Part shown: in pieces, positions 11,335-25,752 of the stretch
Layout: every line of letters starts with the position of its first letter
Numbering within the stretch: the stretch's first letter is position 1
Source: Clostridium sp.
GTDB taxonomy: Bacteria > Bacillota > Clostridia > Clostridiales > Clostridiaceae
DNA: 64,000 nucleotides
Reading direction: 5' to 3' (one strand)
Assembly: GCF_031292145.1 (NCBI RefSeq)
Contig: NZ_JARLHR010000120.1
Translations under genes and position numbers: made by a program
The notes under the pieces: generated by a model
What the model saw: the letters and a program-made list of their open reading frames with translations, nothing else
Told to the model about the DNA's origin: nothing
Databases searched by the model: none

Positions 11335-11350
11335 ATCACCCCTTAGTTCA

Positions 11351-11378
11351 GTTAAGAGTTAAGAGTTAAAAGTTAAGA
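11351..11378. repeat. heptanucleotide tandem repeat GTTAAGA x4 (one variant unit)
   Basis: gttaaga gttaaga gttaaaa gttaaga read directly, in the aroB-aroA spacer. The same heptamer is repeated at 50921-50955 on the other strand. Confidence 0.9.
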
Positions 11379-11495
11379 GTTGGAGAATTATTCATATATT
11401 ACTATAGTTTTTTTGTTCTTCAAAACCTTGTTCTTTAACTATTACTTCTTATACTTTTTATTGCTTTTGGTTATTTATTCTTATTAATTTATTTT

Positions 11496-12548: not shown

Positions 12549-12641
12549 TCTGTTTTGCCCCCTATACTTTAATTTTAATTAATGATGAATGATTAATTAT
12601 TAATAAAATTACTTCGTAATTTCTTTAATTATATATTTTTA

Positions 12642-12662
12642 GAAATCTCCAAAGGAGATTTC
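12642..12662 (-). promoter_or_regulatory. perfect 9-bp stem hairpin in the aroB 5' leader
   Basis: GAAATCTCC-TTT-GGAGATTTC, with no U-tract. Lies between the attenuator-like terminator and the aroB RBS. Confidence 0.4.
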
Positions 12663-12693
12663 ACCATTCATCTTTCATTATTAACATACATAT

Positions 12694-12726
12694 AAAAAAA
12701 TGGAACTCATATATAAATGAGTTCCA
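12694..12726 (-). terminator. intrinsic terminator (candidate attenuator) upstream of aroB
   Basis: Minus sense reads TGGAACTCAT-TTATAT-ATGAGTTCCA followed by TTTTTTT. It lies 146 nt upstream of the aroB ATG and 42 nt downstream of the aromatic-rich ORF stop. Confidence 0.75.
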
Positions 12727-12768
12727 CTAAATACCAATATCACCTGATATCAAAAACTTGTATAAATA

Positions 12769-12903
12769 TTAAAAACTCATTAAAAAGATATTTTCAGTTT
12801 TTTTGCAAAATAAATAGCCAGCGCTAAAATAAAAGCCCCAGAACATAAAATAAAAAAAGCTATAAAATTTTTGCATAACTGATTTCACAATATCTTTCTC
12901 CAT
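12769..12903 (-). CDS. 44-aa aromatic-rich small ORF (candidate aro leader peptide, or a small membrane peptide)
   Basis: SD GGAG sits 6 nt before the ATG. Peptide MEKDIVKSVMQKFYSFFYFMFWGFYFSAGYLFCKKTENIFLMSF has 10 F, 4 Y and 1 W. An in-frame ATG at 12915 has no SD. Confidence 0.5.
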   Translation of the reverse strand: MEKDIVKSVMQKFYSFFYFMFWGFYFSAGYLFCKKTENIFLMSF

Positions 12904-12981
12904 GATTTTCTCCATTTCTAAAATAATAATTATTTTACGAATATTAATATAACATTAATTTATAAAATTTGTCTTTTTACC

Positions 12982-13009
12982 ATTATAACAAACTCTAATA
13001 CATTGTCAA
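12982..13009 (-). promoter_or_regulatory. consensus sigma-A promoter driving the small ORF and the aro leader
   Basis: Minus sense reads TTGACA, a 16-nt spacer, then TGtTATAAT (extended -10). Confidence 0.6.
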
Positions 13010-13325
13010 TACAAATTAACTCTTTTTCATTTTTTACGTCATTTCTTTATTTATTTATCAGTAATATTACACTTAAAATATTACAATATCAAAAATAAAT
13101 GCATATAATTTATCTTTTATCAAAATTCTTTTTTTTGCACTGCAATATTATTTATCTAGATAATTATATACTTGCTCATATTTATTACTACGTAATTCAT
13201 TTAATAAACTAAGCATAATATCACCTTCTTTATCCATATTATTATACATTAAAATATTATTAATAAAATACATGTAACTGCAAATAATAAGAAAGTATTC
13301 TAAAGGACAAGGTGGTAATAAATAT

Positions 13326-14702
13326 ATGATTAAAAAATTTTTATCTATTTTTATAATGATTATAATATTTGTTCTAGTAAGCTGCAGCGCTAAAAATTCA
13401 ATCAAAAATATAGAAGTTGAGCAACCTAAAGCCTATGATACAATCCCAACAAGGTCAAGTAATAAACTTGAGGTGGATTATACCAACTTTAAGGGATTAA
13501 ACTTGGTTGAAGATGAGATTAAATTTAAAATTGATGGTAACTCATTAAATCTAAACTTACCAATATATTTAGATAAAAATAGATATTACATATCTTTGAA
13601 TGAGTTAATTGAAAAACTTAATGGTGAAATAGAAAAAGTTGATAATTCTTTAAATATAGTTATTAATAATAATATCTATTGCATTAACTTTGATAATAAT
13701 ACAGTTACATGTCCTAACTATAAATTTCCTCTAAAAAAAGCATTATTAAATTCTGATGACATGTATTATATAAATTTTTCAGATTTTTCGCATATGCTTA
13801 ATTTATATACTAGATGGGACAAAGATAATAAAATAATAGATTGTAAGATAGATGGTTTTAAAAATACAAATCTTACGCCTTATAAATCAACAATAAATCA
13901 AATAGGCCTCATAAGATTTGAAGATGTGGGAGTAACCTCCCAAGCCTACTCAAAAGATTACTTTGAAAAACTTCGTATTATAGCGCATTATATGTATGAA
14001 AAAAAAATACCTTATCATATTGCATGGATTCCTAGATATGTTATTCCAAATCAAGGAGTTGATAATGATCCTTTAACTAAGAATAATTTTGAACTAGCTG
14101 AAATGGTATATAGTTTAGATTATTTCACTTCTCATAATGGACTAATTGGTCTTCACGGATATACTCACCAATGTGGAAACACTGAATCAGGTGCTGGTTT
14201 TGAATTTGGAAAATTTGATCCTTCTGATACAAACTTTGAAGAAAAAATCCAAAAAGCCATTAAAACTGCATCTTATTTAGATATACCAATTAAATTCTTT
14301 GAAGTCCCTCATTATGAAATTACGCCAAGTCAAAATAAAATTGCTGAAAAATATTTTAAGATATTATACTATCCATTTAATGATTATGGAAGAGATAAAG
14401 CTGATTTAACAAAACCCCAGCTTAGTCCTTACAATAAGGCTTCCTATTACATTTCAACACCTCTTGATTATATCCCTGTTGACCAAGAAGAGGTTACTTT
14501 AGATAAACTACGCAACAATGCTAATGAAGCTAAAATGGGAAGTGTATTTTTCCATCCATCTTTAGAAGATAATTATATTTCATTAACTCAAGATAACGAT
14601 ACTTCTCCTACTTTTTATTATGTTAAAGATTCAACCTTAAAAAAATTAATAGGTATATTAGAGGAAAGGGGCTTTAAAATGATTAGCGTAGCAGATATTT
14701 AG
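13326..14702 (+). CDS. lipoprotein with stalk-like N-terminal domain and DUF2334/polysaccharide-deacetylase-like C-terminal domain
   Basis: Signal peptide with lipobox LVSC and RBS AAGGTGG. The DUF2334 assignment comes from the general sequence character (HGYTHQ) only. Confidence 0.5.
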   Translation: MIKKFLSIFIMIIIFVLVSCSAKNSIKNIEVEQPKAYDTIPTRSSNKLEVDYTNFKGLNLVEDEIKFKIDGNSLNLNLPIYLDKNRYYISLNELIEKLNGEIEKVDNSLNIVINNNIYCINFDNNTVTCPNYKFPLKKALLNSDDMYYINFSDFSHMLNLYTRWDKDNKIIDCKIDGFKNTNLTPYKSTINQIGLIRFEDVGVTSQAYSKDYFEKLRIIAHYMYEKKIPYHIAWIPRYVIPNQGVDNDPLTKNNFELAEMVYSLDYFTSHNGLIGLHGYTHQCGNTESGAGFEFGKFDPSDTNFEEKIQKAIKTASYLDIPIKFFEVPHYEITPSQNKIAEKYFKILYYPFNDYGRDKADLTKPQLSPYNKASYYISTPLDYIPVDQEEVTLDKLRNNANEAKMGSVFFHPSLEDNYISLTQDNDTSPTFYYVKDSTLKKLIGILEERGFKMISVADI

Positions 14703-14892
14703 TTGCTCTAATTATTCGGATTTTATTGATGAGATTAACACGAACAAAATGACAAAAAATTTTAATAAAGATGAAGTAATTGATAATATTGCTATATCAT
14801 TAGACTATGATTGCTTAGAAGATATACCACACTTTGATACAAGAAATGATTTTTTGAAGAAATTGAAAGAAGCTTTGAGACTATATGATAAA

Positions 14893-14977
14893 CTGACTTA
14901 CGGACAGTAAAAAGGGCAAGCTAACCAACTATTTATCAAATCAGTATACCTAATCTAAATAGCTGTCCGTAAGTCAG
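14893..14977. repeat. 85-bp element bounded by a perfect 15-bp inverted repeat
   Basis: CTGACTTACGGACAG ...55 nt... CTGTCCGTAAGTCAG read directly. Confidence 0.85.
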
Positions 14978-15856
14978 ATCTGAAGATACTTTAAAATTTA
15001 GCAATGATTTAAAAACTGCAAGAACTCAATTAGAGGCTGAAAAAATAACTTCCATTTATGAAAAAACTCAAGCTGGAGAGCCTCTTGATTCCATTTTACA
15101 AATTTTTAATGTTGCATAAGAAACCTCCTTAGTTGTCTTAATGAAAATATTTATCTATAACTCTGCTCGTTTATAGAGCAATTTTATATGTTACATTTTT
15201 ATTTATATTATTAGCACTAAAACTTGTTTCTAAATTTATACTAAGACAAAAGATAACATTAATTAATTATTTCATGCAATGTTTATTTAAGGACAAAAAA
15301 CACTTCTATTAAATATACTTGATTATTTTTTCTTCAAATGATATTTTTGATCTTCCTTCATCCCTCCAATAATAGAAATATATATCAATATTTGTGAAGT
15401 AACCTATATAATAACCATTAAGTCTATAATTAAAAAATTATTTAAGATTAATGTATCATTATAAACAAATTTAACTTTTTCTTATATGCAATTTTAATTA
15501 TCGTGAGTAGCATTATATATGACGCAATAAAATTTAATTTAAACTGCTCAACAATCGTAATTAGGCTTGAACCAATAATTATGTTAAATAAAATTCTATA
15601 CAAACCATTATTTTTTTCTTCAAACTACCTATAAATAGATTATATTCATAGTATCTAAACTATTTATAACAGTATTATTCAACATAATATTTACCTGCTT
15701 GCTTAAATTCTGTGATCGAGTTGATGCACTTATGAATACTATAATTGCAAAAGATGTATTTCTTACAAAGCCAGGTAAATTAGTAAAAAAAATCAGCATA
15801 CTTAGTTGCAAAAAACACTACTAAATTTAATGTTAAATAGCCTATATAGCATAAAG

Positions 15857-15893
15857 ATAAGAGCCTTGAGTTTTATTTTCTCTCAGCTCTTAT
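15857..15893 (-). terminator. hairpin immediately after the distal ABC ATPase gene
   Basis: ATAAGAGC..TGAG/CTCA..GCTCTTAT stem 3 nt after the stop. The U-tract is weak. Confidence 0.35.
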
Positions 15894-15895
15894 TT

Positions 15896-16789
15896 TTATT
15901 TATAATTCTCCATTTCATTACATTCACTAATAGATATTACTTTTGCTAAATTTCTATTTAGTAATTCTTGAATTTTATTATAAAAACTAACGTTATTAAG
16001 ATTTTCTTTTATACGTAGTATATTTTTCTTATCTTCAATAATTGTATAATCAGAATAATACTCTTTTAAAAGACTAATATCATTTATTGCTTCTAAATAT
16101 ACATTTATATCTTTATCTAATTTTTTTTGATGATTAAGTTTTTGCACCTTATGATTTACAATTTGGTATTTTTCATTACATACTTCATTTAAAAAATTAC
16201 TATCATGACTTGTTATTATTATACTTGTGTTATAATAGTTAACCAATTGTAATAGATTTTCTTTAAATAAAATTTTATTTTCGGCATCTAATCCGTCTAC
16301 TGGTTCATCTAATATTATAAGATCTGGAAAATTTAATAACGATATAGAAAACATAAGCTTTTGCTTCATTCCTTTTGAATAGGTTTGAACTTTTTTATGT
16401 ATATAATTTTCCATGCTAAAGTTTTCAACCAAAGTATCTATTCTCTCTTTTATATTAATATCTAATCCTTTTAAAACTGCAAAATATCTAAGATTATCAT
16501 ATCCTGATAAGTTCCAATATAAATTTCTATTTCCATCACTCATTATGCTAATTTTTTTATTTAAATAATTTCCAATTTTATTAATATCATGCTCTAACAC
16601 CTTGCATATTCCACTTCTAGGCATTATTTGTCTACAAACAATTCTTATAAAAGTAGTTTTACCTGAACCATTCTTCCCAACTAGTCCAATAATTTTATTT
16701 TGAGGAATACACACAGACATATTTTCAAATACAATCTTATTCCCAAAGTTCAAATTAATATCATCCATTTTCACAATAAAATCACTCAT
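15896..16789 (-). CDS. ABC transporter ATP-binding protein (no adjacent intact permease)
   Basis: Walker A GKNGSGKTT, signature YSKGMKQKL, Walker B LIILDEP. Confidence 0.8.
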   Translation of the reverse strand: MSDFIVKMDDINLNFGNKIVFENMSVCIPQNKIIGLVGKNGSGKTTFIRIVCRQIMPRSGICKVLEHDINKIGNYLNKKISIMSDGNRNLYWNLSGYDNLRYFAVLKGLDINIKERIDTLVENFSMENYIHKKVQTYSKGMKQKLMFSISLLNFPDLIILDEPVDGLDAENKILFKENLLQLVNYYNTSIIITSHDSNFLNEVCNEKYQIVNHKVQKLNHQKKLDKDINVYLEAINDISLLKEYYSDYTIIEDKKNILRIKENLNNVSFYNKIQELLNRNLAKVISISECNEMENYK

Positions 16790-16820
16790 TATTCTATATA
16801 CCTTTCATAAAAATTATATA

Positions 16821-16882
16821 TTTTAAAAGTAACAGTAGCAGATAAAAGTTTCATATTTAAATTTTACCTACTACTGTTACTT
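16821..16882 (-). terminator. stem-loop after the precursor gene array (possible leaky terminator)
   Basis: Minus sense reads AAGTAACAGTAG ..32 nt loop.. CTACTGTTACTT followed by TTAAAATAT. Confidence 0.35.
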
Positions 16883-16917
16883 CTAACTTTCTATTATGTT
16901 ATTTGCATGTTTTTAGA

Positions 16918-17019
16918 TTAAGCTGAAAAATTGCTACCATTGTATCCAACATTTCCGCAAACAATTGCACCTACTGATACGCATCCTGCTTTTATGTCTT
17001 TCTTTAAGAAAAATAGCAT
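16918..17019 (-). CDS. RiPP precursor peptide, copy 1 (33 aa MLFFLKKDIKAGCVSVGAIVCGNVGYNGSNFSA)
   Basis: Translated by hand. RBS GGAGGTG sits 6 nt before the ATG. The ORF is below the track cutoff and lies in the rSAM operon. Confidence 0.75.
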   Translation of the reverse strand: MLFFLKKDIKAGCVSVGAIVCGNVGYNGSNFSA

Positions 17020-17065
17020 ACTAAACACCTCCTTCTTTCTTTTTTAATTGCTTGGACATTTTTAA

Positions 17066-17167
17066 TTAAGCTGAAAAGTTGCTACCATTGTATCCAACAT
17101 TTCCACAAACAATTGCACCTACTGATACGCATCCTGCTTTTATGTCTTTCTTTAAGAAAAATAACAT
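17066..17167 (-). CDS. RiPP precursor peptide, copy 2 (identical 33-aa product)
   Basis: Same frame and peptide as copy 1, with RBS GGAGGTA. Differs from copy 1 only at synonymous sites. Confidence 0.75.
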   Translation of the reverse strand: MLFFLKKDIKAGCVSVGAIVCGNVGYNGSNFSA

Positions 17168-17213
17168 ACTAAATACCTCCTTCTTTCTTTTTTAATTGCT
17201 TGGACATTTTTAA

Positions 17214-17315
17214 TTAAGCTGAAAAGTTGCTACCATTGTATCCAACATTTCCACAAACAATTGCACCTACTGATACACATCCTGCTTTTATGTCTTTCTT
17301 TAAGAAAAATAACAT
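17214..17315 (-). CDS. RiPP precursor peptide, copy 3 (identical 33-aa product)
   Basis: Same peptide, with RBS AAAGGAGA. One synonymous difference from copy 2. Confidence 0.75.
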   Translation of the reverse strand: MLFFLKKDIKAGCVSVGAIVCGNVGYNGSNFSA

Positions 17316-17424
17316 ACCTAATCGTCTCCTTTCCTAAAAATTAAAAATCTATTTAAATTTCAATATGGACACTCTTTATTCCACATGAAAATTAAAGCAG
17401 CTTTATTTTCTAAAATTAATAAAT

Positions 17425-17883
17425 CTAATGAACTTGTTCTTTCTTTTTTGAAATAAGTGTTGCAATCATTCCAGTGAAGTAAAATAACACCAAATAAATT
17501 GCAAATAAAAATACAAGTGAACTTATATCAAAACTTACATTTATATTACTTAGAGAAATACTCGAATTAGATTCTGCTAATTTTTTTGTGTTTTCAATAA
17601 TAATATCTATATTATCTTTAGATAAATTAATATATAAGAATATTCCTGTTATTAACATAGATATAACTGATATAATTGCAGAATATAAAATATTATCTTT
17701 CTTTGAAAAATTATTCTTTAAAACATTAATTCCATATATTACTGCATTTATAACTAGCGGAATGATTGTACTATACAAGAATAAAGTAAGTATATTTATT
17801 GTATCCATTTGTATTTCTATGCTAAAAAGACTAATTATTAAAACTAAAATCATAATAATATAATATTTAATAGATTTATTCAT
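17425..17883 (-). CDS. small polytopic membrane protein of unknown function (about 4 TM)
   Basis: 152-aa hydrophobic ORF between the CPBP gene and the precursor array. No recognisable motif. Confidence 0.6.
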   Translation of the reverse strand: MNKSIKYYIIMILVLIISLFSIEIQMDTINILTLFLYSTIIPLVINAVIYGINVLKNNFSKKDNILYSAIISVISMLITGIFLYINLSKDNIDIIIENTKKLAESNSSISLSNINVSFDISSLVFLFAIYLVLFYFTGMIATLISKKKEQVH

Positions 17884-17895
17884 AAAATCACCTCT

Positions 17896-18546
17896 TTAAA
17901 ATATTTTTAAAACCACTACTACATCATAAAACCAGTGAAGTAAAATTGATGATGATAGATTTTTAGTATATAAATACATACTTCCTAAAATAATTCCAAG
18001 TGGAACCCTAATAATTAAATTAGTTAAAATATCTTCATTTGAATGTAATATAAAAGCAAATATTAATGAACTAATTATCATAGAAACAATTTTACTTAAA
18101 TTTCTACTTAAAATATGGATAATTATGCCTCTTGATAAAATTTCTTCTGATATTCCAATAAACATAAAATGTATAAATACATAATAATTGCTTATAAGCG
18201 TATTGAATTTTTGGGCATATATAACTATAGATACAAACAAAATCAATATACTAATATTCATAATTATTGCTTTTCTATTTTTAAAACCCGACAAGCCTAT
18301 GTCATTAAAAGTTAATTTATCTGTAAATTTCAATATATATATTGGAATTAAAGCAAAACTAATAAAAATTGGTATTGATTGTGAAGCAAGTATAGAAATC
18401 AATGGTTGATCTATTCCAAACATTCCGACTAATAACGACATACTTATTAGCAATAATAGCAACATCAATGATGGTAAAACTGCTAACGCAATAACTTTTA
18501 ATACATTATTAAAAAAATCTTCTTTATTCCTAATTATATTTACCAT
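17896..18546 (-). CDS. CPBP (CAAX/Abi) family intramembrane metalloprotease
   Basis: Motifs EEILSRG (EExxxR), FAFILH (FxxxH) and HWFYD (HxxxD/N) in a polytopic membrane protein. Confidence 0.8.
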   Translation of the reverse strand: MVNIIRNKEDFFNNVLKVIALAVLPSLMLLLLLISMSLLVGMFGIDQPLISILASQSIPIFISFALIPIYILKFTDKLTFNDIGLSGFKNRKAIIMNISILILFVSIVIYAQKFNTLISNYYVFIHFMFIGISEEILSRGIIIHILSRNLSKIVSMIISSLIFAFILHSNEDILTNLIIRVPLGIILGSMYLYTKNLSSSILLHWFYDVVVVLKIF

Positions 18547-18547
18547 A

Positions 18548-19324
18548 TTAACTCACATCCATTTTTTTAAAACGCTTTTCAGCACGTTTTAATATTGTAA
18601 TTAAATATATAGCTGTAATTAGCAGATTTATAAAAACTAATAATACTGGATTAGATGCTTGCAAATATATCTTTTGATCAACCATATATGAAGGACTAAT
18701 ATATTTCAAATATGGAATATATGATAAAAGCTGTATTACTAAAAAGAATGCAACCGAAGATACACATACAATAAACGGCTTGAAGTATAACCCAAGTAAT
18801 ATGCAACCAGCAACAAAAATCAATATTTCTAAGCTATAAAAAAGCATTGAAATAAGTATTGTTGCGGTATCTAGAGAAAAGAAAATTTTCGATCCTATTT
18901 CAGAATTTGCAATAAAAATATAAAACACTAATATACTTATTAAATTGTAAGCAATAAAGTAAACAATAAATACTGCTGCTACTGCTAAGAATTTTGCATA
19001 CAAAAGCTTTTTTCTATTACATATATGAAGTAATTGCAATTTTATTTGGCCTGTTTCTATTTCGCTTGATACATTGTTTATAGATAGAAATAGAAATCCA
19101 AAAAAAGGCAAACCTAACAAAAACATTAAACACCACATTATGTTTACAAAATCCAAACATGTCATTAAAGTATTGTTGTTACTTGATACTTGTACAAAAG
19201 AAAATTTAAAATATATACTAATTCCGTAAAAAGCAGGAAGTATACATGTAGCAAATATAAAGTTTTTCATACTTCTTTTAGAAATTTTATACATTTCTAT
19301 ATTGATAATATTTAATAAACTCAT
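18548..19324 (-). CDS. ABC-2 type transporter permease (LanG/E-like)
   Basis: 258 aa with about 6 TM, adjacent to the ATPase. Confidence 0.65.
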   Translation of the reverse strand: MSLLNIINIEMYKISKRSMKNFIFATCILPAFYGISIYFKFSFVQVSSNNNTLMTCLDFVNIMWCLMFLLGLPFFGFLFLSINNVSSEIETGQIKLQLLHICNRKKLLYAKFLAVAAVFIVYFIAYNLISILVFYIFIANSEIGSKIFFSLDTATILISMLFYSLEILIFVAGCILLGLYFKPFIVCVSSVAFFLVIQLLSYIPYLKYISPSYMVDQKIYLQASNPVLLVFINLLITAIYLITILKRAEKRFKKMDVS

Positions 19325-19342
19325 ACTATACCCCCATATTAA

Positions 19343-20254
19343 TTAATTATTAATGAAAAACTGCATTAAAGAATCTTTCTGAACATCAATATCTTTAATC
19401 TTCAGATTGTTTCTTATGCAAAATTCTAATATTTCCGAAAGCAAATTGATATTATTGAATTTTATGCAACTATCTTTAATTGAAATTTCTTTTATTAAAT
19501 TTTTATCATTTTTTATCTTATTTATTATTTCATTATCTTGAATAGATCCATTTAAACATATGGTATAGAATTTATTACTGTTCAATTCACTGTATAACCC
19601 ATCATAAATTACTTTTTTATTTCCAATAACAAGTATTTTTTTACATAAGTCTTCCACTTCCTTTAGCTGGTGACTTGAAAATATAATTGATACCTTTTTT
19701 TCATTAGATAAATAGTGAATCTTTTCCTTTAACAGTTCTATACCAACTGGATCCAATCCAACAAATGGTTCATCTAAAATGAGTAGTTTAGGCTCTGAAA
19801 GTAACGACTGAACTAAACCTAGTCTTTGCTTCATTCCAAATGAAAAAGATTTAACCTTTTTATTATAAACATTCTCTAAATCTACAAATTTTAAAAGCTC
19901 CATTATCTTTTCTTTATATACAGCTTGTTTGACTTTTTTTATTCCCATCATTTGAATTTTTAAGTTATCATAGGCAGTCATATCCTCATAAAAACTGCAG
20001 TCTACAAGTGAACCTATACTATTCATAACATTTGGATCACTATGGTCTATTAATTTTTCTTCATAATAAATTTTCCCTGAAAAATCTTTATAAAGCCCCA
20101 AAATTGTTTTCATAAGTGTTGTTTTACCTGCTCCATTTTTACCAATAAGCCCTATAGTTTCTCCATATTTAATCGAAAAACTTATATTATCAAGTGCTAA
20201 AAATTCTCCAAATCTTTTTGTAACACCATCTACTGTTAATAGATTTTCACTCAT
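19343..20254 (-). CDS. ABC transporter ATP-binding protein (LanF-like)
   Basis: Walker A GKNGAGKTT, signature FSFGMKQRL, Walker B LLILDEP. Confidence 0.85.
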   Translation of the reverse strand: MSENLLTVDGVTKRFGEFLALDNISFSIKYGETIGLIGKNGAGKTTLMKTILGLYKDFSGKIYYEEKLIDHSDPNVMNSIGSLVDCSFYEDMTAYDNLKIQMMGIKKVKQAVYKEKIMELLKFVDLENVYNKKVKSFSFGMKQRLGLVQSLLSEPKLLILDEPFVGLDPVGIELLKEKIHYLSNEKKVSIIFSSHQLKEVEDLCKKILVIGNKKVIYDGLYSELNSNKFYTICLNGSIQDNEIINKIKNDKNLIKEISIKDSCIKFNNINLLSEILEFCIRNNLKIKDIDVQKDSLMQFFINN

Positions 20255-20266
20255 ATAAAACTCCTC

Positions 20267-21046
20267 CTAATAAACACCTAATGTACCATTTTTCTTTGTT
20301 TCATTATAAAAATATCTATATAAAATAATAGATAAAATAGCATATATTAAAGTATTAAGTATTGAAATTAATAAAATATTATTAAAATTAAAGGTAGCAG
20401 CTTTATTCAAAAATGATTGCATACAAGCTATTGTTCCACTAAAAGGCACTATCATATAAATTATTTTCTGTGTAACCTCTGTTAATGCTAAAAATGGTAA
20501 TCCAACCTCAATTATAAGAAGTATATTTAGAATATTAAAAATCGAGTCTAATTTTTTGAATCTAAGAAGTAACCCTACAAGGATCATTGATAATGATATA
20601 CCAGTAACAATTACAAGTACTAAGTTTGTAATCAAAAATAATACGCTTAAATTTACAGAACAAAATATACTATTTGCAATAAAAATCATCACAAACCATA
20701 TTGGAAGTGTAAATAATATACTGACTAATGTTCTTATAATTATTAATTCTGGAATAGAATAGCAGCTATTATAAATTTGTTCAAAGACTCCTATCTGAAT
20801 ATCTGTTCTAATACTTTGTGCTCCTACAATAACTACTGTTGTTATTATAGGTACTAACGAAAAGCTTAATATTTGCGATTTATCTCCAATTTTATTTATT
20901 CCAAACATAATTGCTGTAAATACAGTTATAAAAATTAATGTATTAAGAATAAATTCAAGTGGATATGCCATTGAATCTTTAAAATTTTTGTATACTTCTA
21001 TTTTTAAAAGCCTGAAATATCTTTTTAATATAATCATTACATTCAC
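20267..21046 (-). CDS. ABC-2 type transporter permease
   Basis: 259 aa with about 6 TM, between the rSAM gene and the ATPase. Confidence 0.65.
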   Translation of the reverse strand: MNVMIILKRYFRLLKIEVYKNFKDSMAYPLEFILNTLIFITVFTAIMFGINKIGDKSQILSFSLVPIITTVVIVGAQSIRTDIQIGVFEQIYNSCYSIPELIIIRTLVSILFTLPIWFVMIFIANSIFCSVNLSVLFLITNLVLVIVTGISLSMILVGLLLRFKKLDSIFNILNILLIIEVGLPFLALTEVTQKIIYMIVPFSGTIACMQSFLNKAATFNFNNILLISILNTLIYAILSIILYRYFYNETKKNGTLGVY

Positions 21047-21057
21047 ATTCCTTATAT

Positions 21058-22305
21058 TTAAGCAAGTTTAAGAATAGTTTTCATAAATTCATCAAAATAA
21101 ATTTTATTCATTTTACAATAACTATCTTTACAATCTACATTACCATTTGCAAAATAAGATCTTGCCCTACATCCACCTTTACATAAGTACATATATTCAC
21201 ACTCATTACATTCTTCTATATTTTCAACAGTTAGTCTCTGAAATTTTTTTGCAATTATATTATTATCCAGAATATCTTTTAAATTGCTTTCATCTAAATT
21301 TCCCATTTTAAATTTGGGGTCATGAAACATATGACATGGGTAAACAGACCCATCACTAGCAATACTTATATTATGTTTTCCTGCTCCACATGAATGGCCA
21401 ACATCAATAGAAAAATTTAATGGACTATCTTCAATTTGAATGCCATCTTCTTTTTGAAGTAAACATCTTACAATTTCATCAAAGTGTTCTTCTTTTAATA
21501 TATGTTCTTTAAACTCTTCATTGTTGCAGCTTAATATACTAAAGCTTATTCCAACACCTAGACTTTTAGATAATTTAATGTATTCATTTAACTTAGAATA
21601 GTTTTTACTATGAATTGTAGGGAGTATACTAACAGGTATTCCTGTTTCTTTTATAAGTTCTACTGTTGATACTACTTTTTCAAAAATGCCGTCATCTCTT
21701 ATAAATTTAGGATTATCTTTACTATATCCATCAATAGAAACTGCAATAGATGAGACGTATGCTTTTATACTTTCAAATAATTCTTTTTTATGTATAGTTC
21801 CATTTGTTATCATATCAATGGTTGGTATTTTCACTTCTTCCTTTGCATATCTTAATATTTCAACAATATCTTTTCTTAAAAGTGGTTCTCCTCCGGATAT
21901 AACAATCCTTTTTACACCTACACTACTTAATTCATTAAAATATTTTTTTATATTTTCATTAGATTTATCAAAACAATTGTTTCTTGTATTATCATATGAA
22001 TAACAACCTATACAATTTAAATTACATATATTAGTTACATGTAAGTATGCAGAATTAATTTCATATTCTTTTAACTTATAATCATCATTTAATAAAAAAT
22101 CATTTTCTTCTAAGGTCAATATAATCTCTCTTTGATTTTTGTCTAAATCATTTAAATTAATTTCACTGTTACTTTCTATTTTATTTATAATCTCATTTCC
22201 ATTTTCATTTAATCCCATAATCGATCCATTTGCAGTGTTTGCAATTAAAGTTATTCCTTTTATATTAAATTTTCTTACATCTTTTGAAAAAGCAAGTCTT
22301 TCCAT
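21058..22305 (-). CDS. radical SAM / SPASM-domain peptide maturase with N-terminal PqqD-like RRE
   Basis: CNLNCIGC (CX3CX2C) and GGEPLL. Full SPASM signature: CGAGKHNISIASDGSVYPC, then CNECEYMYLCKGGC, then CKDSYC. About 85 aa precede the core. Start moved to MERLAFS after GGAGGAG. Confidence 0.85.
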   Translation of the reverse strand: MERLAFSKDVRKFNIKGITLIANTANGSIMGLNENGNEIINKIESNSEINLNDLDKNQREIILTLEENDFLLNDDYKLKEYEINSAYLHVTNICNLNCIGCYSYDNTRNNCFDKSNENIKKYFNELSSVGVKRIVISGGEPLLRKDIVEILRYAKEEVKIPTIDMITNGTIHKKELFESIKAYVSSIAVSIDGYSKDNPKFIRDDGIFEKVVSTVELIKETGIPVSILPTIHSKNYSKLNEYIKLSKSLGVGISFSILSCNNEEFKEHILKEEHFDEIVRCLLQKEDGIQIEDSPLNFSIDVGHSCGAGKHNISIASDGSVYPCHMFHDPKFKMGNLDESNLKDILDNNIIAKKFQRLTVENIEECNECEYMYLCKGGCRARSYFANGNVDCKDSYCKMNKIYFDEFMKTILKLA

Positions 22306-22707
22306 TTTAATTTCTCCTCCACATAAATATATATCGATATATTGCAAATAAAAATTTGCATCTAATCAATTTGTTTTTAATACGTTTCAATCACTGCCTA
22401 AATAGTAACACAATCGCTCAATATTTTATCATTTAAGTAAAAAACAGATTGATATTTGTAATATATGTTCAAAAAAAAGCAACATTATACTTTTATTACT
22501 GATTTAATTACAAAAACAAAACTTATATATTTTTCTTACTATATTTAATGATTGATTTTTAATCTAGCTTTAATAATAAAAAACTTAGTGAAGCAATTAA
22601 TCTATGCTAAAAATTAGAACGTTTACCAAAAAATTGTTACATTCAAGATAATAACATCCTAATAAATCATTTATTACAAAATAAAGTACATAAATATCTT
22701 ATTTAAA

Positions 22708-22753
22708 ACAAAAAGTAGTTTGAAATATTAACTAATATTCAAACTACTTTTTG
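22708..22753 (-). terminator. rho-independent terminator after the LytTR regulator gene
   Basis: AAAAAGTAGTTTGAA..loop..TTCAAACTACTTTTT followed by GTTTT on the minus sense. Confidence 0.7.
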
Positions 22754-22797
22754 GGTACTATATGAAATTAAGCTAAAAACTCTTTAAATAAATAATT

Positions 22798-23523
22798 CTA
22801 TTTAAGCAATCCTCTAAGCAATCTAACGGCAACTAAGCATTCTTGTCCATTTATCATATAAATAACCCTATTATTTTTATCTATTTCTTTTATGTTATCT
22901 TTATTCACCAAAAATGATCTATGGCATCTATAGAAACGCTCATCAAGTTTCGCTTCAACATCTTTCAGCTTTGCATAAAATTCAATTTGCCTATCTACTG
23001 CATGAAGTATTACCTTATGTATAATGTTAGAAGTTTCAAAAAATAAAATCTTATTATATTCAATATTTATAATTTTATCTTCTGCTTTAATTGTAAAGTT
23101 TTTTTGCAGTCCTGTTGCTTTTGCTGAATACTTTTTATGAGCATTCAAAATGCATTCATGTATCCTTTCTTTTATAGTTTCAGGTTTATCCTTTATTATA
23201 TAATCCATTGCCTCAACCTTATATATAAAAGTCAAGTAACTCATTTCTGCATGAGTAGTTACAAAAACTATAAATCCCCTTGGATCATACTCTCTTATTG
23301 TTTCTGCAAGTTTTATGCCATTTAGCTCAGAATTTAAGTCTACATCCAAAAAGTACAATCCAGACATGTCATTATTCTCTAGATAATCTATAGTTTTTTC
23401 TGGACTTTCCGTAGACAACACAATTTTCATATCTAAATTTTCAATCATTATAATATCTTCAATAAGCTTTGTAATACTTTTTCTTTGAGATTCATTATCT
23501 TCACAAACTATTATACTTAGCAT
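22798..23523 (-). CDS. agrA: AgrA-like response regulator (receiver + LytTR DNA-binding domain)
   Basis: 241 aa with a CheY-like N-terminus (FLDVDL) and a LytTR-type C-terminus (FYRCHRSFLVN). Confidence 0.8.
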   Translation of the reverse strand: MLSIIVCEDNESQRKSITKLIEDIIMIENLDMKIVLSTESPEKTIDYLENNDMSGLYFLDVDLNSELNGIKLAETIREYDPRGFIVFVTTHAEMSYLTFIYKVEAMDYIIKDKPETIKERIHECILNAHKKYSAKATGLQKNFTIKAEDKIINIEYNKILFFETSNIIHKVILHAVDRQIEFYAKLKDVEAKLDERFYRCHRSFLVNKDNIKEIDKNNRVIYMINGQECLVAVRLLRGLLK

Positions 23524-23537
23524 TTTCTCATCTCCTC

Positions 23538-24863
23538 TTAGTTTAAGACATTAGTATTTGATATTTGTAAATTTTGAATAAATTCTTCATTTTGAATAGA
23601 TGTATCAATAGATATATTTTTATAATTATTTACAATTTCTTTTAAATTACTTAATCCAAGCCCCCTATTAGAACCCTTAGTTGAAAAACCGCTCTCAAAC
23701 ATCTTATAAATTGGAGGATTTTCTTTAAGACAAGAATTTATAATCAAAATAATTATAGAATTTTTCTTATTTATAATACCAATTTTTAAACTAGGAGATT
23801 CACATAAAAGTGCTGCATCAATTGCATTGTCTAAAAGAATTCCAATAATTCTACACAAATCTATAATATCTATATTTATAAATTCTACTGCTTCCATAAT
23901 ATCAATAAATACATTTACGCCTAATTCCTGTGCCCTGATAACTTTTGATGATAATACACCTTTTAATTCTGTAACTTTAATATGTTGAAGCAATTCCAAC
24001 TTATAATTTTTATTTGAAATCTCTTTGTTCATAAGCAATATTCTCTTATTGAAAAATTCATTCAGTCCATTTAAATCCTTTTGCTCAATATATCCTTTCA
24101 TTGAAGACAAAATATTTACATAATCATGCCTAAATTTTCTCATATCATTATACATACTCTCTAAATTAGAAGTGTATTCTTGTAAGTTATCAAATTCCAT
24201 CTTTTTAGTTTTAAAATCCATTTCCTTCTTTAAATTAATAACAAGAATATATGTCATTATAAGTGTGCAAAAGAAATATGATAAAAATAATACACTATCA
24301 ACATAAATAATAAGATTATCAACATTGGAAAATTTAATCAACATTGCATTTACATAAAATATTAAACTTGTTAATCCAATGTTGATTAAAATTAATAGCA
24401 CAAATTTATTTTTAAAATTGATTTCTTTTAAATTAAATCTTGATCGCTTTAATAAAAAAGCAATAAATGAACTAATTACAAAAGCAATAGAACATAATAC
24501 AAAATGCATACATATAAATACAATTTTGTTATTTAGAATCTGATGAGCATCTTGATTAAATATTTTTATAAAGATCGCACCTTGTATTGTATCTGATAGT
24601 ACAAAAATTATAATTGAAAAAATTATAGAAATAAAATTTTCAATAATTTTTTTGTTTTCCTTAAAAAGCAAAAGCATCATAACAATTAAAAATAAAGGTA
24701 TTCCAAGTATTTCAATTTTTACTGATATAATACCTGCTGTTAAATAAACGATTAAAAAATTTTTAATAAAATTTTTCTTCTTAAACTCTATTATTTTTAA
24801 ATTATAAGTTACAAAAACTAATGTAAACATAGATATTAATAAAGTAAATAGTTTTATAGCCAT
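23538..24863 (-). CDS. agrC: AgrC-like (HPK10) sensor histidine kinase
   Basis: 441 aa with 6-7 N-terminal TM segments, H-box KFRHDYVN, and GHKL N/G boxes (LLDNAIDA, GLGLSN). Confidence 0.8.
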   Translation of the reverse strand: MAIKLFTLLISMFTLVFVTYNLKIIEFKKKNFIKNFLIVYLTAGIISVKIEILGIPLFLIVMMLLLFKENKKIIENFISIIFSIIIFVLSDTIQGAIFIKIFNQDAHQILNNKIVFICMHFVLCSIAFVISSFIAFLLKRSRFNLKEINFKNKFVLLILINIGLTSLIFYVNAMLIKFSNVDNLIIYVDSVLFLSYFFCTLIMTYILVINLKKEMDFKTKKMEFDNLQEYTSNLESMYNDMRKFRHDYVNILSSMKGYIEQKDLNGLNEFFNKRILLMNKEISNKNYKLELLQHIKVTELKGVLSSKVIRAQELGVNVFIDIMEAVEFINIDIIDLCRIIGILLDNAIDAALLCESPSLKIGIINKKNSIIILIINSCLKENPPIYKMFESGFSTKGSNRGLGLSNLKEIVNNYKNISIDTSIQNEEFIQNLQISNTNVLN

Positions 24864-24977: not shown

Positions 24978-25148
24978 CTATTCTTCATCTATCATTATTA
25001 GTTCCTCTGGAAATTTAGTTTCATAAAATCCTCCACACTCACAACATTTATCTGCAGATGATTCTGCAAGTTTTACTGATAATTCTCCAAGCTTATGTAA
25101 TGACACATCAATTAAATTTTCAACAAATGACTTTTTTATATCGTTCAT
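24978..25148 (-). CDS. agrD: AgrD-type autoinducing peptide precursor (56 aa)
   Basis: MNDIKKSFVENLIDVSLHKLGELSVKLAESSADKCCECGGFYETKFPEELIMIDEE. It has an amphipathic N-terminus, a Cys-containing core and a PEEL acidic tail. RBS GGAAGGAGA. Overlaps the agrB 3' end by 29 nt. Confidence 0.7.
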   Translation of the reverse strand: MNDIKKSFVENLIDVSLHKLGELSVKLAESSADKCCECGGFYETKFPEELIMIDEE

Positions 25149-25752
25149 AATTTTTATATCTCCTTCCAAATAATTTATATATAATTGGAGTTATAGTGAT
25201 TGATTCACACAATACTCCATAACTAATGCAAAATTTTAAAGCAGAATTATTTATACACAGTGCTAGAATCATTAAAATCCCAGCTGATAATAATGCCTTA
25301 ATTTTAAGTCTCTTTCTTAAATTCCTTCCTACTAATGGTCTTGCTTCTGTATCAGCTGGTGCATATAAATAGAGTAATAATGCTGTTCCAAAAAGCATAA
25401 GTAAAACTTTATCATTTGTTATAGCTAAAATTTTAGATATATATACTCCAGTAAAAAAACATATGGAAGTTGTAACTGTACAGCTTGTACTACTTTTAGC
25501 ATGCATTCCAAATGCATAACATCTTATAAAACTAAAGCTTAACATAATAAATAGAGTTTCTTTAAATATTCCTAAAATCTCAGCTATCACAAGAATCAAA
25601 ACTATTTTAGATAAATTAATAATCAATACTTCCAATCCATATTTCATTTTTTTAAATTTTAGTTCATCTATTTCAGCTTCATTGCTAATTTTATTTGCTA
25701 ACTTAAAAGCAATTCTCTCTGACAAATTTTTTTCAACTAAATCTCTCTCCAT
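25120..25752 (-). CDS. agrB: AgrB-type AIP-processing membrane endopeptidase
   Basis: 210 aa and polytopic. FGMHAKSSTSC places His and Cys 7 residues apart, as with the catalytic pair in characterised AgrB. Confidence 0.75.
   Translation of the reverse strand: MERDLVEKNLSERIAFKLANKISNEAEIDELKFKKMKYGLEVLIINLSKIVLILVIAEILGIFKETLFIMLSFSFIRCYAFGMHAKSSTSCTVTTSICFFTGVYISKILAITNDKVLLMLFGTALLLYLYAPADTEARPLVGRNLRKRLKIKALLSAGILMILALCINNSALKFCISYGVLCESITITPIIYKLFGRRYKNYERYKKVIC

What the first reader, a model, noticed from the sequence alone, without database searches (positions are those of the whole stretch)
16918..17315. Three tandem copies of one 33-aa two-Cys peptide, with every coding difference synonymous
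Hand translation of three 148-bp repeat units gives MLFFLKKDIKAGCVSVGAIVCGNVGYNGSNFSA each time, and each copy has its own Shine-Dalgarno sequence. The copies differ at four coding positions (Leu CTA/TTA, two Cys TGC/TGT, Asn AAT/AAC). All four are synonymous, which argues that the peptide is real and under purifying selection. The junction KAG|C mirrors my recollection of the SkfA leader/core junction (..VKAAG|CMGCW..). That would predict a very short 12-aa leader and a 21-aa core, CVSVGAIVCGNVGYNGSNFSA. Two donor Cys lie in the N-terminal half and potential acceptor residues (N, Y, S, F) in the C-terminal half, the hairpin logic of sactipeptides. Head-to-tail cyclisation as in SKF is also conceivable. 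Multi-copy identical precursors are known for ruminococcin C and thuricin Z/huazacin loci.
Basis: partly seen in the sequence, partly recalled or inferred. Interest (0 to 1): 0.8.

Follow-up and report, generated by a model that had tools for sequence, protein, structure and literature searches.

The report
Triplicated precursor of uncharacterised MLF-peptide RiPPs
Three identical, unannotated 33-residue peptide genes are real and under selection, and they belong to a widespread, apparently undescribed family of very short "MLF…C‑x‑x‑Φ‑G…C‑x‑x‑Φ‑G" peptides that always sit beside one particular radical-SAM enzyme, so this is most likely the precursor of a new kind of cross-linked peptide natural product.

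Summary
Three tandem 148-bp units on the minus strand each encode MLFFLKKDIKAGCVSVGAIVCGNVGYNGSNFSA behind a GGAGG ribosome-binding site. The copies differ at four coding positions, all synonymous.

The peptide is not an orphan. About 60 of 80 loci fetched with the neighbouring radical SAM/SPASM enzyme carry 1–4 related ORFs of 22–40 aa on the enzyme's strand. These loci span Firmicutes and Coriobacteriia. The shared architecture is:
- an invariant N-terminal Met-Leu-Phe;
- an N-terminal segment of 11–13 residues;
- two C-x-x-Φ-G modules;
- a dispensable tail of 0–14 residues.

A second lineage also has two identical copies that differ only by four silent changes.

The enzyme has a recognition-element-like N-terminal domain and the rSAM triad plus seven SPASM cysteines. 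Its best structural match is the thioether synthase CteB. ABC transporters and a CPBP protease co-occur in Firmicutes, and an agr quorum-sensing operon lies upstream here.

The SKF-like junction, hairpin topology and cyclisation are not. No Pfam or NCBIfam model and no searchable paper covers the family. The chemistry is inferred, not shown; local unnested Cys thioethers are the most likely.

The parts
17214..17315 (-). MLF-peptide precursor gene, copy 1 (33 aa)
   Evidence: ORF and translation; SD AGGAGA upstream
17066..17167 (-). MLF-peptide precursor gene, copy 2 (33 aa, identical product)
   Evidence: GGAGG 8 nt upstream
16918..17019 (-). MLF-peptide precursor gene, copy 3 (33 aa, identical product)
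   Evidence: GGAGG 8 nt upstream
16910..17317 (-). 148-bp tandem repeat array (102-bp ORF plus 46-bp spacer with SD)
   Evidence: TRF; unit 1 vs unit 2 differ at 2 of 148 nt
16823..16886 (-). Strong hairpin followed by UUUU after copy 3; terminator-like end of the peptide array
   Evidence: fold: -30.4 kcal/mol, z -7.4, 0 of 200 shuffles as stable
21058..22305 (-). Radical SAM/SPASM peptide maturase (415 aa, WP_309449442) with an RRE-like N-terminal domain
   Evidence: Pfam Radical_SAM + SPASM; invariant C94/C98/C101 plus 7 SPASM Cys; AF2 pLDDT 90.6; Foldseek best hit CteB at 2e-22; below cutoff for every NCBIfam family
20267..21046 (-). 259-aa multi-pass membrane protein, probable ABC-2-type permease partner of the ATPase at 15896-16789
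   Evidence: No Pfam hit; homologues in L001 and L003-L006; in L003-L005 directly downstream of the homologue of the 15896-16789 ATPase
19343..20254 (-). ABC transporter ATPase (lantibiotic-protection-like)
   Evidence: Pfam ABC_tran; best NCBIfam TIGR03740 at 186.8 bits, below the 309.75 cutoff; homologue near the rSAM in 49 of 82 loci
18548..19324 (-). ABC-2 family permease
   Evidence: weak Pfam ABC2_membrane_2 hit; conserved in 17 loci
17896..18546 (-). CPBP (Rce1-like) intramembrane glutamic protease; candidate leader peptidase and/or immunity protein
   Evidence: Pfam PF02517 at 2e-15; EExxxR 134-139, His168 and HxxxD 204-208 conserved across family homologues; present in 32 of 82 loci
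17425..17883 (-). 152-aa membrane protein of unknown function (possible immunity)
   Evidence: No family hit; homologues only in L001 and L003
15896..16789 (-). Second ABC transporter ATPase, downstream of the array terminator
   Evidence: Pfam ABC_tran; its homologue sits directly after the peptides in L003-L005
22798..25752 (-). agrB (25120-25752), AgrD candidate (24978-25148), agrC (23538-24863), agrA (22798-23523): quorum-sensing operon directly upstream
   Evidence: Pfam AgrB, HATPase_c_5, LytTR + Response_reg; NCBIfam AgrA/AgrC best hits; AgrD candidate ORF, (no Pfam hit)
22709..22753 (-). Hairpin plus U-tract after agrA, separating the agr and rSAM operons
   Evidence: fold: -22.8 kcal/mol, z -5.0

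Best explanation
The three ORFs are gene-dosage copies of one precursor peptide. It belongs to an uncharacterised RiPP family, here called MLF-peptides.

Proposed mechanism (inferred):
1. The N-terminal segment of about 12 residues begins with an invariant Met-Leu-Phe and has a nearly fixed length. It acts as a mini-leader that docks on the RRE-like N-terminal domain of the radical SAM/SPASM enzyme at 21058-22305. This places Cys13 and Cys21 in the active site.
2. The enzyme, which is CteB-like and has one fewer Cys ligand than anSME around auxiliary cluster I, most likely joins each Cys sulfur to a carbon of a nearby residue inside its own C-x-x-Φ-G module. The invariant Gly at i+4 or the Φ residue at i+3 are the candidate acceptors. 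The result would be two small, unnested thioether rings, i.e. a type-2-sactipeptide-like topology rather than a hairpin.
3. The CPBP protease probably trims the N-terminal segment and/or confers immunity.
4. The two ABC systems and the small membrane proteins export the product and protect the producer.
5. The agr operon next door probably couples production to cell density.

What is shown: the genes, their selection, the family architecture, the enzyme's domain and cluster motifs, and the gene associations.

What is inferred: substrate-enzyme pairing, thioether chemistry, ring positions, cleavage, bioactivity and agr control.

My sub-probabilities:
- RiPP precursor of this rSAM: about 0.9.
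- Cys-derived thioether: about 0.55.
- Local unnested rings: about 0.35-0.4.
For: Gene reality and selection:
- Three identical ORFs with SD sites.
- Only synonymous differences here and in an independent lineage.
- The ORF is kept in the 83% relative.

Family:
- tblastn, HMM and regex scans of 80 rSAM-anchored genome loci found MLF-ORFs in about 60 loci. They are always on the rSAM strand, either 30-100 bp downstream or 1-1.5 kb upstream.
- 63 distinct peptides give M 63/63, L 62/63, F 59/63, an N-segment of 11-13 aa, Cys1 63/63, both Gly 63/63, Cys2 55/63, and a tail of 0-14 aa.
- 64 of 70 have a strong SD 4-12 nt before the MLF ATG, against 9.4% for random ATGs.
- Multi-copy arrays recur: L003-L005 x4, L062 x3, L053 x2, L083-85 x2.

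Enzyme:
- Radical_SAM + SPASM.
- Invariant CxxxCxxC and the canonical 7-Cys SPASM motif (C306...G319-x4-C324; C366-x2-C369-x5-C375-x3-C379; C397) across 33 homologues.
- The AF2 model (pLDDT 90.6) has an N-terminal beta-beta-beta-alpha-alpha domain at residues 10-67.
- Best Foldseek hits are the thioether synthase CteB over 435-448 columns, then anSME and SuiB.
- In the HMMER alignment the enzyme, like CteB, has only two Cys where anSME has three in the first SPASM segment.

Context:
- ABC ATPase in 49 and CPBP in 32 of 82 loci.
- CPBP catalytic motifs are conserved.
- LytTR/GHKL regulators also flank the L083-L086 locus and several others.

Analogy:
- Streptosactin has Cys25-Ser28 and Cys31-Gly34 unnested rings made by a SPASM enzyme (PMC8172795; PMC9389541).
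Against: - No chemistry has been observed. The pairing of peptide and enzyme rests on co-occurrence.
- In this window the peptides are not next to the rSAM. They lie 3.7 kb downstream, behind five other genes, and no promoter for them was identified.
- Eight family members lack Cys2 yet keep the second x-x-Φ-G module. So 'one ring per module' cannot be the whole story, and the invariant Gly residues may be structural rather than acceptors.
- The enzyme scores far below cutoff for every curated thioether-maturase family: StsB 117 vs 625, PapB 94 vs 340.
- A 12-residue leader is unusually short for RRE-dependent recognition.
- The CPBP may be immunity-only.
- No AgrA-box-like repeat was found upstream of the rSAM operon or the peptides. 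The closest relative, L001, has no agrA within 620 bp.
Confidence: 0.6

Rival explanations
1. This is a classical (type 1) hairpin sactipeptide or an SKF-like product. A 12-aa leader is cut at KAG|C. Cys13 and Cys21 bridge to acceptors (N, Y, S, F) in the C-terminal half, possibly with head-to-tail cyclisation.
For: - Two Cys lie in the N-terminal part of the presumed core, and the window's peptide has an 8-residue tail.
- The operon content (rSAM + Rce1-like CPBP + ABC) resembles skfB/skfC/skfEF.
- The 11-13-residue N-segment is conserved.
Against: - The tail is 0-1 residue in 22 of 63 family members and is not conserved in sequence, so it cannot carry conserved acceptors.
- KAG is not conserved before Cys1.
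- The enzyme has a full SPASM domain and is closer to CteB (6.7e-18) than to SkfB (1.8e-12).
- There is no SkfA/SkfB family hit and no thioredoxin gene.
Confidence: 0.08
2. The peptides are substrates of the rSAM enzyme, but the modification is not a Cys thioether. Alternatives include epimerisation of the Val/Ile residues before each Gly, a C-C or C-O cross-link, or oxidation of Cys as in anSME. In that case the Cys would serve as a cluster ligand or recognition residue.
For: - The enzyme matches no curated thioether-maturase family at cutoff. It scores equally well against NirJ2, AhbD, WgkB, MftC and DynA models.
- anSME is the second-best structural match, with the highest TM-score (0.65/0.73).
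- Module 2 keeps Φ-G even when its Cys is lost.
- SPASM enzymes are known to catalyse many different cross-links (PMC9389541).
Against: - Cys1 is the only invariant side chain with reactive chemistry (63/63), and Cys2 is kept in 55/63.
- The best full-length structural match, including the RRE, is the thioether synthase CteB.
- The Cys-ligand pattern follows CteB rather than anSME.
Confidence: 0.22
3. The product is a signalling peptide rather than an antimicrobial (same biosynthesis, different role). It would be a second quorum-sensing or competence-type pheromone made under agr control, or a self-directed 'fratricide/cannibalism' factor like streptosactin or SKF.
For: - agr-type or LytTR/GHKL regulators lie next to the cluster in this window and in L083-L086, L016, L023 and others.
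- Coriobacteriia loci have only the peptide and the rSAM, with no transporter or immunity genes.
- Streptosactin and related RaS-RiPPs act mainly on the producer (PMC9389541).
Against: - Firmicutes loci invest heavily in lantibiotic-protection-like ABC systems, a CPBP/Abi-type protein and small membrane proteins. That is the usual signature of self-immunity to a toxic product.
- Triplication for dosage suits a stoichiometric toxin better than a signal.
Confidence: 0.25
4. The ORFs are not substrates of the rSAM. They would be unmodified small peptides (leaderless bacteriocin, small membrane toxin or regulatory uORFs) that merely co-localise with it.
For: - In this window they are separated from the rSAM by five genes.
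- The very short leader and the retained N-terminal Met-Leu-Phe are reminiscent of leaderless peptides exported by ABC systems. The ATPases give partial hits to PSM-export PmtA/PmtC models.
Against: - Co-occurrence with this one rSAM clade holds across two phyla.
- In Coriobacteriia the peptide and the rSAM are the only conserved pair.
- The conserved Cys and Gly positions are typical of cross-linked cores.
- The enzyme has an RRE-like peptide-binding domain.
Confidence: 0.05

Closest known systems
Type 2 sactipeptides: streptosactin (GggA/GggB = StsA/StsB) and the QmpB product
   Same: - A SPASM-domain rSAM with an RRE acts on a short Cys-containing core.
- Two tandem small modules: streptosactin has Cys25-x-x-Ser28 and Cys31-x-x-Gly34, with Gly as an acceptor. 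Here there are two C-x-x-Φ-G modules 8 residues apart.
- Donors and acceptors would alternate (unnested).
- Both are linked to quorum sensing.
(PMC8172795; PMC9389541.)
   Different: - The enzyme is not in the StsB family (NF045574: 117 bits against a cutoff of 625).
- The precursor is unrelated in sequence (no NCBIfam hit).
- The N-terminal segment is only 11-13 aa and starts with an invariant MLF.
- Regulation is agr/LytTR rather than shp/rgg.
- Ring positions here are unproven.
CteB / SCIFF-type thioether maturase (PDB 5WGG/5WHY)
   Same: - Best sequence and structure match (6.7e-18; Foldseek 2e-22 over the full length including the RRE).
- Same three-domain layout and the same Cys pattern in the SPASM region.
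   Different: - Only 21-22% identity.
- SCIFF precursors (six Cys in about 45 residues with a long leader) are unrelated to the MLF-peptides. No SCIFF or other precursor model hits them.
Sporulation killing factor (skfABCEFGH)
   Same: - The operon logic is the same: precursor + rSAM + Rce1-like CAAX/CPBP membrane protease (SkfC) + ABC export/immunity (PMC8172795; PMC9415966; window).
- A small residue precedes the first core Cys.
   Different: - SkfB is a twitch-domain enzyme with a [2Fe-2S] cluster. This enzyme has a full 7-Cys SPASM domain.
- SkfA has a long leader.
- There are no SkfG/SkfH homologues.
- There is no evidence for cyclisation or a disulfide.
Thurincin H (thnA1-A3) and thuricin Z/huazacin
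   Same: Several identical precursor genes in tandem beside the rSAM and ABC genes: three identical thnA copies and two identical thzA copies (PMC8172795).
   Different: Those are 40-aa-plus precursors with four nested Cys-to-acceptor bridges (hairpin). The MLF family's dispensable tail rules that topology out as a family feature.
Freyrasin / PapB ranthipeptides (own knowledge; PapB named)
   Same: Repeated short C-x3-acceptor modules, each closed into a small ring by one SPASM enzyme.
   Different: - The acceptor there is Asp (C-beta). Here position i+4 is an invariant Gly, which has only a C-alpha.
- PapB family score is 94 against a cutoff of 340.

Membership tests
Sactipeptides (general) | Cys-containing ribosomal precursor encoded with a radical SAM enzyme that has a SPASM or twitch domain and a peptide-recognition element | tested here: met
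   Peptide with 2 Cys; Radical_SAM + SPASM; 7-Cys SPASM motif; RRE-like N-terminal domain and CteB/SuiB full-length fold matches
Sactipeptides (general) | Sulfur-to-alpha-carbon thioether in the mature product | not testable with these tools
   Needs MS/MS and NMR of the modified peptide
Type 1 (hairpin) sactipeptides | Donor Cys in the N-terminal half of the core, conserved acceptors in the C-terminal half, nested bridges | tested here: not met
   Tail after the second module is 0-1 residue in 22 of 63 family members and is not conserved
Type 2 sactipeptides (StsB/GggB family) | Maturase belongs to the StsB family (NCBIfam NF045574) | tested here: not met
   117.4 bits against a cutoff of 625
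Type 2 sactipeptides (topology) | Alternating donor/acceptor, small unnested rings | tested here: inconclusive
   Two conserved C-x-x-Φ-G modules fit this topology, but no chemistry is available and 8 of 63 members lack Cys2
SKF (SkfA/SkfB) | SkfB-type rSAM with a twitch domain; SkfA-type precursor | tested here: not met
   Full SPASM motif; SkfB is only the 4th PDB sequence hit at 1.8e-12 and Foldseek rank 19; no precursor model hit
SKF (operon) | Rce1-like membrane protease plus ABC export/immunity genes in the operon | tested here: met
   PF02517 CPBP and two ABC ATPases; SkfC described as a putative protease / Rce1-like
Ranthipeptides (PapB family / SCIFF) | PapB-family or SCIFF maturase and a matching precursor (C-x3-D repeats or six-Cys-in-45) | tested here: not met
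   PapB NF047865 scores 94 against a cutoff of 340; no C-x3-D motif; no precursor family hit
MLF-peptide family (defined here) | Start at Met-Leu-Phe; 11-13-residue N-segment; C-x-x-Φ-G twice; same strand as and near the cognate rSAM clade | tested here: met
   The window peptide fits every feature; the rSAM is 38-47% identical to the clade
agr quorum-sensing regulon | AgrA (LytTR) direct-repeat boxes in the promoter of the target operon | tested here: not met
   The 10-bp repeat pair with 22-bp period is found only upstream of agrB (25793-25824). There is none upstream of the rSAM operon or the peptides. The true AgrA site of this species is unknown, so this is a weak negative.

The most novel reading that the evidence does not exclude
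MLF-peptides would be a new RiPP class. In this reading the maturase reads the substrate from its free (formyl-)Met-Leu-Phe N-terminus, using an 11-13-residue 'ruler' instead of a conventional leader. It then installs a cross-link type not yet described, for example paired Cys-to-Gly i/i+4 alpha-thioethers, or a Cys1 link that needs both invariant glycines. A more speculative rider: if the N-terminal segment is retained or released intact, host-associated producers (Collinsella, Eggerthellaceae, Veillonella, Enterococcus, Streptococcus) would secrete peptides beginning fMet-Leu-Phe, the classic formyl-peptide-receptor agonist motif.
Probability: 0.25. Interest if true: 0.8.

Novelty: new variant of a known kind. 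Interest (0 to 1): 0.62.

Why it matters
The finding turns an unannotated repeat into an entry point to a large RiPP family that appears to be unstudied. A scan of one genome per species found 432 rSAM relatives. They include common human-gut and oral genera: Collinsella, Gordonibacter, Adlercreutzia, Veillonella, Enterococcus and Streptococcus.

The substrates are only 22–40 residues long, so they can be made synthetically, and a single enzyme appears to be enough. The chemistry could therefore be settled quickly.

Two features would interest RiPP enzymologists:
- The invariant N-terminus and the fixed Cys distance suggest an unusual way of recognising the substrate.
- The invariant Gly residues suggest a defined small-ring scaffold.

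In this Clostridium, the agr operon next door and the heavy investment in immunity genes suggest a density-controlled antimicrobial. The case also illustrates how tandem small ORFs are missed by annotation pipelines and break short-read assemblies.

Tried and rejected
- **phmmer of the 33-mer against 1.84 billion representatives:** found only one true relative, P0126. The other hit, P0125, is a spurious 589-aa repeat protein.
- **NCBIfam and Pfam scans of eight family peptides at E up to 10:** no hits.
- **Literature:**
  - No paper holds any of six peptide strings.
  - No paper combines radical SAM, RiPP and CPBP, or radical SAM, precursor peptide and MLF.
  - The Clark & Seyedsayamdost 2022 atlas and Hudson et al. 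2019 are not held.
  - No supplements are held for the two large mining papers.
  - So presence of the family in bulk mining tables cannot be excluded.
- **AgrA boxes upstream of the rSAM operon or the peptides:** none found.
- **Promoter for the peptide array:** the consensus scan is uninformative in this AT-rich DNA, with 81 sites found against 102 expected.
- **Decayed permease gene in the ORF-poor stretch 14910–15895:** no similarity found.
- **AgrD candidate against Pfam:** no hit.
- **anSME-like Cys oxidation:** considered because some members read C-x-P-x-G. Ranked low because the enzyme has an RRE and a CteB-like Cys pattern.
Full report
**1. Observation**

The region 16910–17317 is a 148-bp tandem repeat: 2.8 copies at 97% identity. 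The coding strand is the minus strand. ORFs 17315..17214, 17167..17066 and 17019..16918 each give MLFFLKKDIKAGCVSVGAIVCGNVGYNGSNFSA. Each has AGGAG/GGAGG 8–10 nt upstream.

The three copies differ at nt 4, 39, 63 and 90 of the ORF. All four differences are C/T and all are synonymous. The 46-bp spacers differ at one site. The probability of four silent changes out of four is 0.0024, 0.014 or 0.038, depending on the mutation model. That is suggestive but not decisive for a young repeat. The exact peptide is absent from the 15-billion-protein collection, so it was never annotated.

**2. Context in the window** (all on the minus strand)

| Coordinates | Feature |
|---|---|
| 25752..25120 | agrB |
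| 25148..24978 | AgrD-like ORF ending …CCECGGFYETKFPEELIMIDEE |
| 24863..23538 | agrC |
| 23523..22798 | agrA |
| 22753..22709 | strong hairpin with U-tract |
| 22797..22306 | about 400 bp of promoter region |
| 22305..21058 | radical SAM/SPASM enzyme |
| 21046..20267 | 259-aa membrane protein |
| 20254..19343 | ABC ATPase |
| 19324..18548 | ABC-2 permease |
| 18546..17896 | CPBP (Rce1-like) protease |
| 17883..17425 | 152-aa membrane protein |
| 17315..16918 | the three peptide genes |
| 16886..16823 | very strong hairpin with U-tract (-30.4 kcal/mol, z -7.4) |
| 16789..15896 | second ABC ATPase |

The flanks are housekeeping genes: shikimate-pathway genes, a DUF2334 protein, an MFS transporter and cardiolipin synthase. 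The block has lower G+C than its surroundings, 0.23–0.26 against 0.28–0.34. The genome is an unnamed Clostridium sp., and every neighbouring protein is a singleton at 90% identity.

**3. Relatives**

The rSAM has two 82–83% relatives in read-archive assemblies and hundreds at 38–47%. The 83% relative, L001, has the same gene order. Its contig ends 45 nt into the same ORF, which reads MLFFLKKSIKAGCVS. That is the expected place for a short-read assembly to break at a tandem repeat.

A scan of one genome per species with an alignment of the rSAM family found 432 relatives, of which 80 loci were fetched. These loci were searched with tblastn, an iterated HMM over all small ORFs, and pattern searches. 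Together they found related ORFs of 22–40 aa in about 60 of the 80 loci. The ORFs are always on the rSAM's strand, either just downstream of the rSAM or 1–1.5 kb upstream. Most of the loci without one are truncated contigs.

The hosts span two groups:
- Firmicutes: Lachnospiraceae, Oscillospiraceae, Thermoanaerobacter, Kandleria, Enterococcus, Streptococcus, Staphylococcus, Lysinibacillus, Neobacillus, Anaerococcus, Veillonella.
- Coriobacteriia: Gordonibacter, Adlercreutzia, Raoultibacter, Paraeggerthella, Collinsella, Olsenella.

A phmmer scan of 1.84 billion representative proteins found just one annotated relative, P0126. It occurs in 181 index blocks of metagenome assemblies. Its locus reads LytTR regulator, GHKL kinase, CPBP, a 147-aa protein, the rSAM, a 124-aa protein, two identical 33-aa peptide genes, then ABC transporters. 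The two copies there differ at four nucleotides, all silent, and the single-copy variant in L086 adds four or five more silent differences. Between genera dN is well below dS. The ORF is conserved across two phyla.

**4. Family architecture** (63 distinct peptides)

| Segment | Conservation |
|---|---|
| Met1 | 63/63 |
| Leu2 | 62/63 |
| Phe3 | 59/63 (streptococcal and one enterococcal variant MLKF) |
| N-terminal segment before Cys1 | 11–13 residues in all |
| Module 1, C-x-x-Φ-G | Cys 63/63, Gly 63/63 |
| Spacer | 3–5 residues in 58/63 (absent in 3) |
| Module 2, C-x-x-Φ-G | Cys 55/63, Gly 63/63 |
| Tail | 0–14 residues; 0–1 in 22/63 |

Further single-Cys variants were found later, for example MLFAIEEQGVALSYCSDIFGIHVGV. 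The MLF codon is the true start. 64 of 70 peptides have a strong SD, mostly AAGGAGGTG, 4–12 nt upstream, against 9.4% for random ATGs in the same loci. Several copies per locus are common. They may be identical (this window, L083), nearly identical (L062 x3, L053 x2) or divergent (L003–L005 x4).

**5. The enzyme**

- Pfam finds Radical_SAM and SPASM domains.
- Across 33 homologues the invariant residues include C94/C98/C101 and the canonical SPASM pattern: C306…G319-x4-C324, C366-x2-C369-x5-C375-x3-C379 and C397.
- The AlphaFold2 model is confident (pLDDT 90.6). It has three β-strands and two helices at residues 10–67, ahead of the barrel. This is the layout of a RiPP recognition element.
- Foldseek ranks CteB first (2e-22, 435–448 aligned columns, so including the N-terminal domain). 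anSME, SuiB, PqqE, TigE and SkfB follow.
- In the sequence alignments, the first SPASM segment has two Cys as in CteB, where anSME has three. From my own knowledge of the CteB structure paper (Grove et al. 2017, the title of entries 5WGG/5WHY), that missing ligand leaves an iron of auxiliary cluster I free to bind the substrate cysteine. This fits thioether formation but does not prove it.
- The enzyme reaches no NCBIfam cutoff. The best partial scores are NirJ2 126, AhbD 122, WgkB 118 and StsB 117 bits, against cutoffs of 500–650. It is therefore a separate clade.

**6. Accessory genes**

Near the rSAM, ABC ATPases occur in 49 loci, CPBP proteases in 32 and ABC-2 permeases in 17 of 82. The 259-aa protein occurs in 5 loci and the 152-aa protein in 2. 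Coriobacteriia loci have only the peptide and the rSAM.

The CPBP keeps EExxxR, a conserved His and HxxxN/D across the family. It is therefore probably catalytically active. Abi-type immunity proteins keep these motifs too, so this does not separate a peptidase role from an immunity role.

In L003–L005 the order is rSAM, peptides, ATPase-1, 259-aa protein, ATPase-2, …, CPBP, and in L003 the 152-aa protein follows. In the window lineage the 'peptides + ATPase-1' segment sits at the far end instead.

LytTR or agr-type regulators adjoin the cluster in this window, in L083–L086 and in a few other loci. The only AgrA-box-like direct repeat in the window (GCGATAAGTT-N12-GCAATAAGTT, 25793–25824) is upstream of agrB. 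L001 has no agrA within 620 bp. Control by agr is therefore an inference from adjacency.

**7. Interpretation**

The co-occurrence across two phyla, the conserved Cys and Gly positions, the RRE-bearing SPASM enzyme and the export/immunity genes together make a RiPP precursor by far the best reading (about 0.9).

The family comparison decides between topologies. The tail is dispensable, so the conserved acceptors must lie within or between the two C-x-x-Φ-G modules. The nearest described logic is that of type 2 sactipeptides. Streptosactin carries Cys25→Ser28 and Cys31→Gly34 rings made by a SPASM enzyme (PMC8172795; PMC9389541). By analogy I propose one small ring per module, with the invariant Gly (which can only be linked at Cα) or the preceding Φ residue as acceptor.

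The weak point is that 8 of 63 members lack Cys2 yet keep module 2. The glycines may therefore be structural, or Cys1 may reach into module 2.

The invariant MLF and the fixed distance to Cys1 suggest that the free N-terminus is part of what the enzyme recognises, acting as a mini-leader or ruler. Whether the CPBP then removes it is unknown.

**8.

Correct:
- The peptide is real.
- The rSAM pairing.
- The short N-terminal segment.
- The precedent for multi-copy identical precursors. Thurincin H, with three identical thnA genes, is the closest precedent; thuricin Z has two.

Not supported:
- The SkfA-like KAG|C junction, because the positions before Cys1 are variable.
- The hairpin donor/acceptor logic.
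- SKF-like cyclisation. The enzyme is SPASM and CteB-like, not twitch and SkfB-like, and there is no SkfH.

The rSAM + CPBP + ABC operon does echo skfB-skfC-skfEF.

**9. Novelty**

No Pfam or NCBIfam model recognises the peptides. No curated family claims the enzyme. No paper in the searchable library contains the peptide strings. Only one family member was found as an annotated protein among 1.84 billion representatives.

The two most relevant bulk surveys could not be read, so the clade may exist unnamed in published networks. I rate this as a new variant of a known kind: a radical-SAM-modified RiPP, probably thioether-linked, with a distinctive precursor architecture. It is not categorically new.

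Noticed in passing
window 22798-25752 (-), with 25793-25824 (-): A complete agrBDCA-type operon. The AgrD candidate (24978-25148, MNDIKKSF...CCECGGFYETKFPEELIMIDEE) has no Pfam hit. A perfect LytTR-style direct repeat, GCGATAAGTT-N12-GCAATAAGTT, lies about 45-75 bp upstream of agrB and is unique in the window (0.03 expected by chance).
   Followed up: partly
window ~12000-28000: G+C dips to 0.23-0.26 across the agr + RiPP block, against 0.28-0.34 in the flanking housekeeping genes (aro operon, cardiolipin synthase). This suggests an acquired island. No integrase or other mobility gene was looked for.
   Followed up: no
window 14910-15895: About 1 kb downstream of the second ABC ATPase has no ORF longer than 60 aa. 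In related loci (L003-L005) a permease follows that ATPase. No residual similarity to the 259-aa protein or to the permease was found by tblastn.
   Followed up: yes
window 15896-21046 compared with L003 10001-16400: Gene-order rearrangement. In Lachnospiraceae and relatives (L003-L005) the peptides and ATPase-1 directly follow the rSAM. In the window and in L001 the cluster begins rSAM, 259-aa protein. The peptides (and, in the window, ATPase-1) sit at the 3' end, which separates ATPase-1 from its probable permease partner.
   Followed up: partly
window 17340-17400 (-) and L001 5548-5585 (+): A modest hairpin (TTTCA..TGGA / TCCA..TTGAAA) between the 152-aa gene and peptide copy 1 is conserved in the 83% relative (z -2.1 and -2.5). 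It could be a processing or stabilising element, or a partial terminator, for the peptide mRNA.
   Followed up: partly
All MLF-peptide loci (e.g. L012, L055, L071, L077-region genera): Every family member begins Met-Leu-Phe, the sequence of the classic neutrophil chemoattractant fMLF, and many hosts are gut or oral commensals. Soil and thermophilic members also have it, so enzyme recognition is the likelier reason. The coincidence was not tested.
   Followed up: no
L083-L086 (ENA metagenome scaffolds), 2970-11460: A related cluster with two identical peptide copies is very common in metagenome assemblies (181 index blocks). It carries extra conserved 147-aa and 124-aa proteins of unknown function flanking the rSAM, and a fused ABC exporter. 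The host organism was not identified.
   Followed up: partly
window 25833-25991 (-) and L001 119-271 (-): Small hydrophobic ORFs of 52 and 50 aa, both containing a ...KGI(I/V)(L/I)G... stretch, lie upstream of agrB in the window and upstream of the rSAM in L001. They may be related small membrane proteins. They were not compared formally.
   Followed up: no
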